This document shows positions 20,653 to 43,721 of a stretch of DNA of 64,000 bases, piece after piece. The notes beneath the pieces were generated by a model that ran no database searches, was not told the DNA's origin, and worked only from the letters and a program-made list of their open reading frames with translations. Both the position numbers and the translations under genes were made by a program. Source of the stretch: the human T2T-CHM13v2.0 reference genome, Homo sapiens. The DNA lies in the NCBI RefSeq assembly GCF_009914755.1, contig NC_060929.1; one strand, written 5' to 3'. Every line of letters starts with the position of its first letter. The first letter of the stretch is position 1.

Positions 20653-20693
20653 AGGGGTATAGCTCAGTGGTAGAGCATTTGACTGCAGATCAA
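20653..20693 (+). pseudogene. Retroposed 5' fragment (nt 1-41) of tRNA-Cys(GCA)
   Basis: AGGGGTATAGCTCAGTGGTAGAGCATTTGACTGCAGATCAA matches the human tRNA-Cys-GCA 5' part (anticodon GCA at 20685-20687). No T-arm or 3' acceptor strand. Flanked by perfect C(A)11GTT direct repeats. Confidence 0.92.
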
Positions 20694-20779
20694 AAAAAAA
20701 AAGTTTCCCCCGAGTTTAGAATAAAGAATCTTCACAAAAGTTAAACCTCTTCAAAGTAGCGTCAGCCTTAGATATTACG

Positions 20780-38752: not shown

Positions 38753-38806
38753 CCTAGAGAAGTCGAAGTGCGGTTCATACTGTCCTCCCACTCCATAATT
38801 TGCAAC
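38753..38806 (-). CDS. P4HA2: P4HA2 exon 11 (VANYGVGGQYEPHFDFSR)
   Basis: 54 nt; contains the HxD Fe(II)-binding motif. Confidence 0.97.
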
Positions 38807-39792
38807 CTGTGGGAAATAACAGCATTAGACCTTGTAAGCAGCATGAACAGCTCTGTAGCAGCCAATCACTCTAGGGATACCATCTTCCCAGGCCTGAAAA
38901 CAACCAGAACTCCCAAGAGCAGCCTCTCTAAGGTGGAAGACAACCATGCCCTGGCAGCACAGGCAGAGCAAACATCACAAACAAGTCTACAGTTCTGTCC
39001 AAGAGTAAGGCTGCGGCACAAATGTGGTTTCCCAAACAAAACAAGATGGGTGAACTGCATATGATCACTGAGGAAAAGCACCAGCCCTTCATGGACACTC
39101 AGACAGCAGCAAAGGGAACACTGCTTGAGGCGGGCCCTGGCCTGGACCCAGTTTGTTTGGGACATATTAAGAAAGTAATCCAGAGGAAAGTGAGTAACAA
39201 ATTTAAGACGAGGATTTTCTTTTTTAAACTAGTTTTGGAGGTACTCAGCACCTGGCACTGTTCCTACCACCTCTGCTATTCCTGGTGAGACTGAGTGGGG
39301 CAGACTCCCACAGTGGTCTACTGCATGGAGTGAAACAGCACAACATGGGTGGCCAGCTGCCAGGCAGTCAAGAATTACCGTGCTACATCAGCAACCCCAG
39401 TGTGACCCTGGACCTGAAGTAACATCTGAGCAACTACCAGGTGTCATAAATTGGATTAGAAATTGTAAATGCCTTTGTGGACAGCTTATCAGCACAATGG
39501 GAAGTCCTAAATCACAATTATTGTCTCAGCGTCAGTAGACAGAATGAGAGACAAGGTTAAAGATGAAGCACAGAATCTGACATGGAAGCTGATGGATCAA
39601 GTAGCACCACCAATGTCCATCTGGGAACAGTTGGCTATTGTGTCTCACTGAAAACATAAAAACCTCTGGGGCTAGGCCATAAGTTCTCAGAAAGTTGGTA
39701 TTTTTTGTATATCCTTTTCTGCAATCCCAACAGTCAGGTGAGAGATGCTACAAAACTAGCAATAACAGAGACCTATAAAAACGTGGGACAGA

Positions 39793-40100
39793 AGCCAGGC
39801 GTGTTGGCTCACGCCTGTAATCCCAGCACTTTGGGAGGCTGAAGTGAGAGGACTGCTTGAGCTCAGAAGTTTGAGACCAGCCTGGGCAACATAGCAAGAC
39901 CCCATCTGTCTCTACTAATGAAAAAATTAGCTGGGCACAGTGGCGTGCACCTGTAGTCCCAGCTACTCAGGAAGCTGAGGCAGGAGGATTGCTTGAGCAC
40001 AGGAGTTCAAGGTTGCACTGAGCTATGACTGTGCCACTGCACTCCAGCCTGGGCAACAGAGTGAGACCCTGTTTCACATACACACAAAAAAAGAAATGCA
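39793..40100 (+). mobile_element. AluJ inserted in the CLASP2 retrocopy
   Basis: Diverged dimeric Alu; CLASP2-like sequence resumes after it. Confidence 0.9.
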
Positions 40101-40414
40101 AGAAAGAAAGGGACAGTGGACTTTATAAGAGATGAAATCCTCTTATTAGAGCACAAAATGTTGGCAGTATCATTTTCCATGTCTACAAAAATAAAAATTT
40201 TAATACAAAGCATGGATGAAAACATGTTGTCATCCATTGCTTCAGCCTTTAAGATTCCTGTACCAAAAATACCTGGAAATCCTGTCAACAGCACAAGGAA
40301 GCCTGGTTCAGCAGGTGGCCCTAAGGCTGGAGATGCATCTAAGGAGAGAAGTGCCAGAGCAGCTGAGAAAGCATATCTCTTTTTGTAGTCAAGAGCTTGA
40401 AGAAAATTTTTTTC

Positions 40415-40559
40415 TCTCTCCTTTTTTTTGGGGGGAGTGGGGGTAGAGACAGAGTCTCACTATGTTGCCCAGACTGGTCTCAAACTCCTGGCTTCGAGCA
40501 ATCCTCCTGCCTTGGTCTCCCCAAGTACTGAGTTACAGATGTAAGCCACGACACCTGGC
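40415..40559 (-). mobile_element. Alu monomer (FLAM-like) inserted in the CLASP2 retrocopy
   Basis: GAAGAAAATTTT duplicated on both flanks. Confidence 0.8.
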
Positions 40560-42744
40560 ATGGAAGAAAATTTTAAACACAACTGTGACTGCTGTGCAGG
40601 TACACTCAGGAAAATTCAATTAGTGCTTGTTGCTGGAGCTGCAAAGTATGACTGCATTTTCCAATACTTCCACTTGTTAAATGGATTGCTTAAATTTACA
40701 AATCCCAGGCAGTGAAAGAAGCTGCATTGCGAGAGCTGGCTCATCTTTTAGGTTTGGAGAATTATATTTGATTATGGTTCTGAAGCCACCGTACCTACTT
40801 TCTTTAATACAGTTCCCAAATAAGTACAAAATGCATAGGACCATCTAGATTTGCAGCAGTAAGATTCCCTATCCAGGCATACTCAAGTCCCCAGGCTCAC
40901 GCCTTTAATAACAAGAAACTGTACGTCAAGACCGATTCATGTGAGGAGGTATTCACTTAAATCTTTAGACTTACTATTGTAAGAGTGGGGTCAGTTATTT
41001 GAAAGATGTGGGTATTTACAATGCTAAGGACAGAGTAAAGGCAAAATTAAAAAGGTCAGAAATCACTTTTCTGGTGAGGCTGAGACATCATGCAGCCAAA
41101 GTCTTCAATCTTTAGAATCCTAGAGGTGTAGCATCTCTTCCTCTCTATCAGATAAGCCCTCATCCAATTCACCAGAAAGCCTCAATTACCTTTTTCCTTC
41201 AAATGATCTACAGCAAACATGTGAGCTACAGCTGAAAGAATGTCAACAGATAGAAGAACCAGCTCCTTTCCAGAGGCCTGCAGCATTTCCTAAAGGACCT
41301 GGTGTGAGGGCTGTTGCTGGTGCCTAGGCATGTATCATACCACAAGCATTTCATATGGAGTAAGCACTTAGGGATACATGCTGAAACCCAGGTTCCTGTT
41401 CCCCAGACCATGAAGGATCAAAGCCTTCAATACCACTGACTGGCAAAGGAAATGTCGAGACAGTTCCTAGGAGAAGAATACAAACAAAAATGGCATCTCA
41501 ACCACTTGGCAGCTGTGGTCTGAATTTCCAGAAGATCCTTAACTATAAGAGCCCCTCTACCAAGAGGTCTGGCATTCGGGCCCCAGACAATTGAGCTACA
41601 ACACAATGAGAGGCCAGACAAGATAAAGGCTGAATTGTAGCAGAGAAGTCAGTCCATAGGCAAGAAGCTGCTATCTTCCACGGGTGAGTGTAAGACAGGG
41701 ATACAGTGAGTACAGCCGCACAGCTAGCCAGGAAAGCAACAGAGCCACAGGTCCTGTCTACTCAGCCTCTTGGTCCAGGGTATGAAATCAGCCAAGCAGA
41801 CTGTGGTCTTTGATCAGGACCATGAAAGTCCTGAAGACTGGCTCTAACACAGAGGAAGCAGTGGCAGATGTCTTTAAAAACAAAAACAAAAACCTGCTCC
41901 AAGAAGATATGAATCAAGACAATGCCAACAGGGACTCATCTAGCACATCAAGAGTGCCTATCACTCTTGAAATGGTGGTGCTCTTACACATACGCAGCAA
42001 GTGGGAGATGAGGCAGAAGTCCTCCATGGATGTGCTTATCTGCAGAATTTATTTAAAAATTACAAAACACTAAGTTGAGCTGAACTGAAAAAAAAATTAA
42101 AATTTCACAGTACTATTTGCAAGGTAATCAGTATGCTTTTTAAAACTCTGGTAGACTTCACACCAATCCATAAAGATGACCTTCAAAATTGATTTTCCAA
42201 TTGCTGATGCAGCTACACAGAAAAAACAACAAAAAGAAGGCTGATTTGCTTAGGCGTGTCCAAGCAAAAGTTCAAAAAATCTTTTCCAAATGATCTTTAA
42301 TCAATATTCTAATGAGATCTATGGTAGATCAGACCCAAATGCCAATCCTAAAGGTAAAGGCTGCTATCTTTAAGTATACAGAAACTTTGGCCAAACAGAG
42401 AGACCCAGAGGCCTCTAGAAAGATGCCAGTGAAACTTCTCTGATGGTGTCTCAGGTCATCAATTTTACAACAGAACACAGAAGTTCCAATATTTATAAGG
42501 GAACATAGCCAGTGCTGATTTGGACTCAATACCCAAGAGGACACTTTACTAAGCTTTACCCAAGAGGATACTTTAATAAGGAGCTTTACCCAAAACCTTT
42601 CAGCAGGGTGCTGCCACATTTCTTCAAAATCACCTCTGAATAAAGGCAGGAAGCCAGGGTCCCAGTGGGAGTACTTGGACAAGAACATTCCACCTGCACC
42701 AGCTTAACCAGTCCAGGCCTCTCACTTCCACCTACATATCACAG

Positions 42745-43221
42745 TGTAAGGTCCCCCAGACCCACCCCGCCTTTCTTTCTTTGTTCTGACTGAAAATCAG
42801 ACTCCCTTGACAGCTCTGTGACCCAGCCAGCTGCAGGTTTTTCCCTTCAGGCTGGAACACAAGCTGGAGTCTTCAACATTCCCAGGCACTGATGAAGGTG
42901 TTTAGGTTGTTGCCCATAACACTGAAAGAAACTAGCCCCAGCCCTGAACCAAATTCCCTAAACCCTCAAATAAACTCCACACTCTGACTCCCTCACTGTG
43001 GAAATACTTAGGTAAAACAATTCTTGTCTCTTGCTGTCCATTTTGAGGATTGCTGCAGCCCACTCTGCAAGTTCCCTAATAAATGCTGTGGACTGAAGAC
43101 CCAGGGGTTTAGTGCCGCTTTCTTTGAATTCTCAACTGACCCCATCTTGGCAGTCCCTCATGGGAAGTCCCCTGCTGCTGCTTTTGGAGCAACTTCAGTT
43201 GTGGTTCAGCAGGAGAAAACA
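42745..43221 (+). mobile_element. Solo ERVL-class LTR (MER54/MER73-like) inserted in the CLASP2 retrocopy
   Basis: TG...CA termini, 5-bp TSD CACAG at 42740-42744 and 43222-43226, AATAAA at 43078. Confidence 0.8.
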
Positions 43222-43621
43222 CACAGAATACTTTGACCTTCAAATGTATTTGATTATGACACAGAACCATGGCCTCTGAAGTCATTTTTAGCTCTCTTAG
43301 AGATGTCCCTGAGACCATTCAGGATTTGAGCTTCTGTTGTCAAGAAGACATGAACGAACCTACCATAACTACCCCTGATCCCTAGCTTGCAGCACACTTG
43401 GGCACACAGCAGATGCTCAATAGATATTTGTTGAACACTAATTGTTGAAAGCCAGCAGGCATGATTAATTCTGGTTTCCTAAAATGAGATCACTCCATAT
43501 TCATAGCATCAGGCAGTAGTCATACAGTTGGGCCTCTTGGCCCAGTTCTGGACACCCTGTGAGACCATCTAGCCACAAATACCCACTTCCCAACTCCTAC
43601 AGTCCCAGGTACTATCTGTAC

Positions 43622-43721
43622 CTGTAACAATTCTGCAGTCTTTACTGTTAACCCTGTGATATGCTGCATCCGACGATTTACTCGGGCCACAACAGGGTCA
43701 TCATCTTCCTCTAGCCAGGAG
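43622..43721 (-). CDS. P4HA2: P4HA2 exon 10 ((S)SWLEEDDDPVVARVNRRMQHITGLTVKTAELLQ)
   Basis: 100 nt, cag| and |gtacag. Confidence 0.97.

What the first reader, a model, noticed from the sequence alone, without database searches (positions are those of the whole stretch)
39325..43361. Hidden ~4 kb CLASP2 retrocopy filling P4HA2 intron 10
Seen: plus-strand sequence that is not a repeat translates, across frameshifts, into colinear blocks matching CLASP2. The match runs from the N-terminal TOG1 domain (GLEIVNAFVD, KLMDQVAPPMSIWEQLA) through TOG2 (LVAGAAKYDC), the S/R-rich linker and TOG3 (VQAKVQK, LKVKAAIFKY) to ...QEDMNEP, with no introns. It spans about 84% of the 4.8-kb intron that precedes the HxD catalytic exon. 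Inference: an L1-mediated retrocopy whose 3' end was lost or truncated. Every P4HA2 pre-mRNA therefore carries several kb of diverged antisense-CLASP2 sequence. It is degenerate enough that it may be unannotated. The CLASP2 comparison is from memory.
Basis: partly seen in the sequence, partly recalled or inferred. Interest (0 to 1): 0.8.

Follow-up and report, generated by a model that had tools for sequence, protein, structure and literature searches.

The report
Ancient dead CLASP2 retrocopy in P4HA2
Most of one intron of the human collagen-hydroxylase gene P4HA2 is an old, badly decayed, intron-free copy of the microtubule-regulator gene CLASP2, which is an ordinary processed pseudogene with no sign of function.

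Summary
Window 39330-43361 (+ strand) is one colinear, intronless copy of CLASP2, whose parent lies on contig C3 at 33.54-33.72 Mb, minus strand.

- **DNA match:** 19 parental exons match in order and abut one another. Identity is 76.3% over 1979 columns.
- **Protein match:** a frameshift-aware alignment to a 1491-aa CLASP2 protein covers aa 13-1159. It has 985 codons, 56.6% identity, 17 stops and 36 frameshifts. It scores 1678 against 40-48 for five controls.
- **Parent:** CLASP2, not CLASP1. There are 158 sites shared only with CLASP2 and 32 shared only with CLASP1.
- **No constraint:** differences by codon position are 20.8, 21.3 and 28.7%, so the copy was dead on arrival.
- **Age:** roughly 100 My or more, by inference.
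- **Later insertions:** an Alu, an antisense Alu fragment and a solo LTR, each with target-site duplications.
- **3' end:** homology stops inside an exon. There is no poly(A) tail and no outer duplication.

The copy lies antisense to P4HA2, in intron 10. The supplied RefSeq table has no row for it, and four of my seven paper searches, which targeted it directly, found nothing. GENCODE and the retrocopy catalogues could not be consulted. Interest is low.

The parts
39330..43361 (+). CLASP2 processed pseudogene (retrocopy). It corresponds to aa 13-1159 of a 1491-aa CLASP2. After removing three inserted repeats, 3061 nt of CLASP2-derived sequence remain.
   Evidence: 19 colinear exon matches at 76.3% DNA identity. 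985 codons at 56.6% aa identity, with 17 stops and 36 frameshifts.
38807..43621 (-). Host intron: P4HA2 intron 10 (4815 nt), between exon 10 (43622-43721) and exon 11 (38753-38806, which encodes the H-F-D motif).
   Evidence: Hub gene table; translation.
39794..40109 (+). Full-length Alu inserted into the retrocopy. It is flanked by the 7-nt duplication GGGACAG (39785-39791 and 40110-40116).
   Evidence: many genomic copies at 80-84% identity; junctions; Rfam Metazoa_SRP hit at 39930-40077, + strand.
40411..40562 (-). Antisense Alu fragment with a T-rich leader. It is flanked by the 12-nt duplication GAAGAAAATTTT (40399-40410 and 40563-40574).
42745..43221 (.). Solo LTR-like dispersed repeat with TG...CA ends. 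It is flanked by the 5-nt duplication CACAG (42740-42744 and 43222-43226).
   Evidence: 12 other genomic copies at 73-77% identity among the 40 candidates scored; junctions.
41876..41893 (+). (AAAAAC)x3 microsatellite inside the retrocopy. It accounts for extra codons at that point in the alignment.
43380..43435 (.). Fragment of an old dispersed repeat, 19 nt beyond the end of CLASP2 homology. 'MIR-like' is my recalled label, not a tool result.
   Evidence: 4 scattered genomic matches at 82-97% over 34-56 nt.

Best explanation
A full-length-N-terminus (TOG1-containing) CLASP2 mRNA was reverse-transcribed and inserted, antisense, into P4HA2 intron 10. This happened roughly 100 My ago or more. 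The mRNA lacked four alternative mini-exons.

The copy never had coding constraint and has decayed neutrally. It has lost about 11% of its length to small deletions. It was later hit by an LTR element, an Alu fragment and an Alu. Its 3' third (the C-terminal domain, 3' UTR and poly(A) tail) is absent, most likely through a later deletion.

Today it is inert intronic filler, transcribed only as part of the P4HA2 pre-mRNA and spliced out.

**Shown:** identity, parent, lack of introns, disablements, neutral pattern, nested insertions and the position of the truncation.

**Inferred:** L1 machinery, age, deletion as the cause of truncation, and lack of function.
For: - **Genome hits:** own-genome DNA searches with repeat-free parts of the region hit only C3 exons besides the region itself. 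The counts are 1 of 2 matches, 5 of 6 and 2 of 3.
- **Exon order:** 19 exon matches are in the same order as in the parent gene. Neighbours abut or overlap by 0-9 nt in the window, while their parents lie 1.4-7.9 kb apart. About 179 kb of gene is compressed into about 3.1 kb.
- **Protein alignment:** score 1678 against 40-48 for controls.
- **Names of relatives:** 5 of 8 homologues of the 107-aa ORF carry names, and all five are 'CLIP-associating protein 2'.
- **Parent assignment:** across 1047 three-way columns in 8 exons, 158 sites are shared only with CLASP2 and 32 only with CLASP1.
- **Neutral pattern:** differences at codon positions 1, 2 and 3 are 131 of 631, 134 of 630 and 182 of 635. 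Parental CpG sites changed at 37 of 63, other sites at 432 of 1916.
- **Nested insertions:** all three inserted repeats have their own target-site duplications.
- **Other copies:** a whole-genome protein search gave 32 matches: 18 on C3, 12 on C2 (CLASP1) and 2 at this locus.
Against: - The hallmarks of L1-mediated insertion were not found. There is no poly(A) tail and no outer target-site duplication, and the 5' UTR is not detectable (local score 15 against a shuffle maximum of 16.5).
- A 5'-complete, 3'-truncated copy is the reverse of the usual pattern for retrocopies.
- The age rests on a recalled substitution rate. No other mammalian genome was available to test for an orthologous copy.
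- Absence of function is inferred from sequence decay alone. No expression data were available.
- 0 of 13 ORF fragments reached any Pfam family. This is expected for short, decayed pieces.
Confidence: 0.93

Rival explanations
1. The 3' truncation arose at birth. Reverse transcription was primed on an internal A-rich tract of the CLASP2 mRNA instead of the poly(A) tail, so the copy never contained the C-terminal domain.
For: In the parent, the roughly 39 nt that follow the last homologous base are A-rich and end at the exon boundary. The break falls inside an exon, not at a junction.
Against: The window has no A-rich tract at the junction. The sequence after 43361 is unrelated and runs into an old dispersed repeat at 43380. 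No target-site duplication is available to mark an original end.
Confidence: 0.15
2. The copy is biologically active. Either it is an independently transcribed + strand RNA, or it acts as an antisense-CLASP2 tract within P4HA2 pre-mRNA that pairs with CLASP2 transcripts.
For: The orientation makes the P4HA2 pre-mRNA antisense to CLASP2. The longest perfect match is 33 nt, ending at 40326, inside a gap-free 120-nt block at 82.5% identity.
Against: - A 33-nt run is not unusual at this identity (simulated P = 0.06).
- Overall identity is 76.3% with 81 gap columns.
- Decay is equal at codon positions 1 and 2.
- The hub's RefSeq table lists no transcript or functional element in this intron.
- Four paper searches targeted at such a copy found none. 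A fifth, 'CLASP2' with 'processed pseudogene', listed 3 papers by title and abstract start only, with nothing about such a copy.
Confidence: 0.03
3. The similarity is due to chance or low complexity, or the copy derives from CLASP1 or from a DNA-level duplication.
For: Single ORF pieces give no Pfam hit (0 of 13). Exon 1 is only 62% identical.
Against: - Controls score 40-48 against 1678.
- 158 sites are shared only with CLASP2 against 32 only with CLASP1.
- DNA searches gave no C2 hits.
- Exon matches are contiguous with no intronic sequence between them.
Confidence: 0.01

Closest known systems
Processed pseudogenes (L1-mobilised retrocopies of cellular mRNAs) in mammalian genomes
   Same: Intronless copy of a spliced mRNA on a different chromosome from its parent. 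It is riddled with stops and frameshifts and evolves neutrally. It sits in an intron, antisense to the host gene, and carries younger repeats nested inside it.
   Different: It is 5'-complete but 3'-truncated, and it lacks a poly(A) tail and detectable outer target-site duplications. It is unusually long (about 3.1 kb of CDS) and old.
CLASP2 (CLIP-associating protein 2), parent gene on C3
   Same: Colinear with aa 13-1159. It covers the segments solved as CLASP2 aa 1-227, 293-543 and 847-1078. These are TOG1-3 in the literature, from my recall.
   Different: There is no open frame. The longest + strand stop-to-stop frame in the region is 107 aa. It lacks the C-terminal domain, aa 1248-1483, and shares 56.6% aa identity.
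Pseudogene-derived antisense or endo-siRNA regulators (for example PTENP1 antisense RNA and mouse-oocyte pseudogene siRNAs; recalled, not checked here)
   Same: A pseudogene sequence is transcribed antisense to its parent mRNA, here as part of the P4HA2 pre-mRNA.
   Different: Here there is no evidence of a stable transcript or small RNAs, and the divergence is much higher (76% identity).

Membership tests
Processed pseudogene / retrocopy | Colinear with the parent's spliced mRNA; introns absent at exon junctions | tested here: met
   19 exon matches are in order. Adjacent matches abut or overlap by 0-9 nt (for example 39518/39518, 42278/42271 and 42358/42352), while the parental exons are kilobases apart.
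Processed pseudogene / retrocopy | An intron-containing parent gene exists elsewhere in the same genome | tested here: met
   The parent is on C3 at 33.50-33.72 Mb, minus strand, and matches exon by exon.
Processed pseudogene / retrocopy | 3' poly(A) tract | tested here: not met
   Homology ends at 43360/43361, about 39 nt before the end of an internal exon, and no A-rich tract follows.
Processed pseudogene / retrocopy | Flanking target-site duplications | tested here: inconclusive
   The original 3' end is missing and the 5' boundary cannot be fixed, so no pair can be sought.
Processed pseudogene / retrocopy | Disabling mutations and neutral substitution pattern | tested here: met
   17 stops and 36 frameshifts; codon positions differ by 20.8, 21.3 and 28.7%.
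CLASP2-derived (versus CLASP1-derived) | Shares derived sites with CLASP2 to the exclusion of CLASP1 | tested here: met
   158 sites are shared only with CLASP2 and 32 only with CLASP1, in 1047 columns. Identity is 73.5% to CLASP2 and 61.5% to CLASP1.
Functional CLASP/TOG-domain gene | Intact open reading frame encoding TOG domains | tested here: not met
   the longest + strand frame is 107 aa; 0 of 13 fragments match Pfam.

The most novel reading that the evidence does not exclude
The antisense-CLASP2 tract carried by every P4HA2 pre-mRNA could pair with CLASP2 transcripts in the nucleus. The tract includes a 33-nt perfect match and a 120-nt gap-free block at 82.5% identity. Such pairing could yield editing or small RNAs that couple expression of a collagen hydroxylase to a microtubule regulator.
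Probability: 0.02. Interest if true: 0.5.

Novelty: new member of a known kind. Interest (0 to 1): 0.1.

Why it matters
The main value is for annotation. The supplied RefSeq table has no pseudogene row here, although the copy fills 84% of the intron. Recording it would help in three ways:
- It would prevent misreading CLASP2-like reads or variants that map to P4HA2.
- It would give a dated neutral marker, with nested repeats, for this 5q31 region.
- It would document the only CLASP2-like locus found outside CLASP1 and CLASP2 in this genome (a strict first look).

Nothing suggests a new mechanism.

Tried and rejected
- **Whole-intron genome search:** swamped by Alu and LTR copies. Only 40 of 11,730 candidates were scored, so I repeated it with repeat-free pieces.
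- **Pfam on 13 ORF pieces:** 0 hits. The pieces are too short and decayed.
- **Search for 5' UTR homology:** not above shuffles. By eye the match may reach the start-codon region at about 39296, but I do not claim this.
- **Search for the missing 3' part:** tblastn over the whole window found only chance hits (E of 0.74 or more). The genome-wide protein search found aa 1188 onward only on C3 and C2.
- **Upstream flank 38807-39329:** no other genomic match.
- **Paper searches:** 'CLASP2P1', 'P4HA2'+'retrocopy', 'CLASP2 pseudogene' and 'CLASP2'+'retrocopy' each returned 0 papers. 'CLASP2'+'processed pseudogene' returned 3 papers. I saw only their listing, and the titles and abstract starts show no such copy.
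- **GENCODE clone names:** AC063976.1.2.3 and .6 appear in 5 papers. [quoted passage not shown] None gives a position or a biotype, so this lead did not settle whether GENCODE annotates the copy.
- **Parent gene sequence:** Some parental exons were therefore never fetched and were compared only at the protein level.
Full report
**What is there**

They are not isolated coincidences. tblastn with two mammalian CLASP2 proteins gives ordered hits in all three + frames from 39330 to 43361/43376. These proteins were retrieved by searching with the 107-aa frame 40065-40388. That search returned 8 proteins among 231 candidates, and all five that carry names are 'CLIP-associating protein 2'. Nothing else in the 64-kb window scores better than E = 0.74.

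I then removed the three repeat insertions and ran a frameshift-aware dynamic-programming alignment. It joins everything into one path covering aa 13-1159 of a 1491-aa CLASP2 (P0002):
- 985 aligned codons with 558 identical (56.6%)
- 17 in-frame stops and 36 frameshifts
- 138 parental residues with no counterpart in the copy
- score 1678

The same procedure on controls scored 48 with the reversed protein, 40 on reverse-complement DNA, and 44, 40 and 41 on three shuffles.

**Parent gene and absence of introns**

The window's own genome is held, and the window is C5:132,680,001-132,744,000. DNA searches with repeat-free parts of the region hit only the region itself and exons on C3 at 33.56-33.70 Mb, minus strand.

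After fetching exon-sized stretches, a sensitive blastn gave 19 exon matches in strictly parental order. Neighbouring matches abut or overlap by 0-9 nt in the window, while the parental exons lie 1.4-7.9 kb apart. In total, about 179 kb of gene (C3 33,718,844 to 33,539,680) is represented by 3061 nt of CLASP2-derived sequence. That figure is my arithmetic from the coordinates.

A whole-genome search with the CLASP2 protein gave 32 matches: 18 on C3, 12 on C2 (the paralogue, CLASP1) and 2 at this locus. The tool noted that a stricter first look was used for that search.

In three-way alignments of 8 exons (1047 columns), the copy shares 158 sites only with the C3 gene and 32 only with the C2 gene. 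Identity is 73.5% to C3 and 61.5% to C2. The parent is therefore CLASP2, and the copy was made from spliced mRNA.

The source transcript included the N-terminal region, and P0002 scored best in the alignment. P0002 lacks four insert blocks of 18, 21, 8 and 17 aa that two other isoforms compared, P0007 and P0003, carry.

Solved CLASP2 fragments map to aa 1-227, 293-543, 847-1078 and 1248-1483 of P0002. From my recall of the literature these are TOG1, TOG2, TOG3 and the C-terminal CLIP-interacting domain.

**State of decay and age**

Over 1979 ungapped columns the copy is 76.3% identical to the parental exons, with a K2P distance of 0.292 and 81 gap columns.

| Site class | Differences |
|---|---|
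| Codon position 1 | 131 of 631 (20.8%) |
| Codon position 2 | 134 of 630 (21.3%) |
| Codon position 3 | 182 of 635 (28.7%) |
| Parental CpG sites | 37 of 63 (58.7%) |
| Other sites | 432 of 1916 (22.5%) |

Decay is equal at positions 1 and 2. The small excess at position 3 matches the short parental branch, which is 0.027 by three-point arithmetic on the distances, while the copy's own branch is about 0.30. This pattern means there was no period of coding constraint.

CpG decay explains why the GC-rich first exon is only 62% identical.

With a recalled human-lineage neutral rate of about 2.2e-9 per site per year, a copy branch of 0.25-0.30 implies roughly 110-135 My. This is an inference. It could not be checked against other mammals because no such genomes were available.

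**Nested repeats**

Three repeats interrupt the copy, and each has its own target-site duplication, so each arrived after the copy.

| Repeat | Position | Strand | Duplication | Supporting evidence |
|---|---|---|---|---|
| Alu | 39794-40109 | + | GGGACAG | Rfam SRP-type hit at 39930-40077 |
| Alu fragment | about 40411-40562 | antisense | GAAGAAAATTTT | |
| Solo LTR-like repeat | 42745-43221 | undetermined | CACAG | TG...CA ends; 12 other genomic copies at 73-77% identity among the 40 candidates scored |

A small (AAAAAC)x3 array lies at 41876-41893.

**Ends**

Homology stops at 43360/43361, which corresponds to C3 33,539,680. This is about 39 nt before the end of an internal exon. No A-rich tract follows. 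Nineteen bases further on there is a fragment of an old dispersed repeat, which has 4 scattered genomic matches. I recall it as MIR-like.

At the 5' end the alignment starts at aa 13. 5' UTR homology is not detectable above shuffles (score 15 against a maximum of 16.5).

The classical marks of L1-mediated insertion are therefore missing. Retroposition is shown by the lack of introns, but the machinery is inferred.

The 3' loss is most simply explained by a later deletion. An alternative is priming on the A-rich stretch that follows the breakpoint in the parental mRNA. That alternative is weakened because the window has no A-rich remnant at the junction.

**Context and function**

The copy lies in intron 10 of P4HA2, between exon 10 (43622-43721) and exon 11 (38753-38806), on the opposite strand. 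Exon 11 encodes the H-F-D motif.

Its longest perfect match to CLASP2 is 33 nt, ending at 40326. At this level of identity that is not unusual (simulated P = 0.06). Nothing in the sequence points to function.

**Annotation status**

The hub's RefSeq table has no row in this intron. Four paper searches returned nothing. One search returned 3 papers, of which I saw only the listing, and their titles and abstract starts show no such copy.

GENCODE clone-based names (AC063976.x) occur in 5 papers. [quoted passage not shown] None gives a position or a biotype.

So the call stands. Novelty is limited to a possibly uncatalogued member of a very common class.

**Verdict**

Biologically it is ordinary.

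Noticed in passing
window 20653-20712 (+): Rfam tRNA model hit at 39 bits against a gathering score of 29, E = 1.1e-4. It could be a tRNA-derived repeat or a tRNA pseudogene.
   Followed up: no
L054 (C3 33,539,679-33,539,640), parent gene: The parental CLASP2 mRNA is A-rich in the roughly 39 nt immediately after the point where the retrocopy ends. This is a conceivable internal priming site.
   Followed up: partly
window 40213-40332: This is the best-preserved block of the copy. It is 82.5% identical to the parent over 120 nt without gaps, and it contains the 33-nt exact run. The run is not statistically unusual.
   Followed up: yes
window 38807-39329: The upstream part of the intron has no other match in the genome at the sensitivity used. 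It appears to be unique intronic sequence.
   Followed up: partly
literature, 5q31 clone AC063976: GENCODE clone-based gene names AC063976.1.2.3 and .6 are used in expression and eQTL papers without positions. One of them might be this pseudogene.
   Followed up: partly
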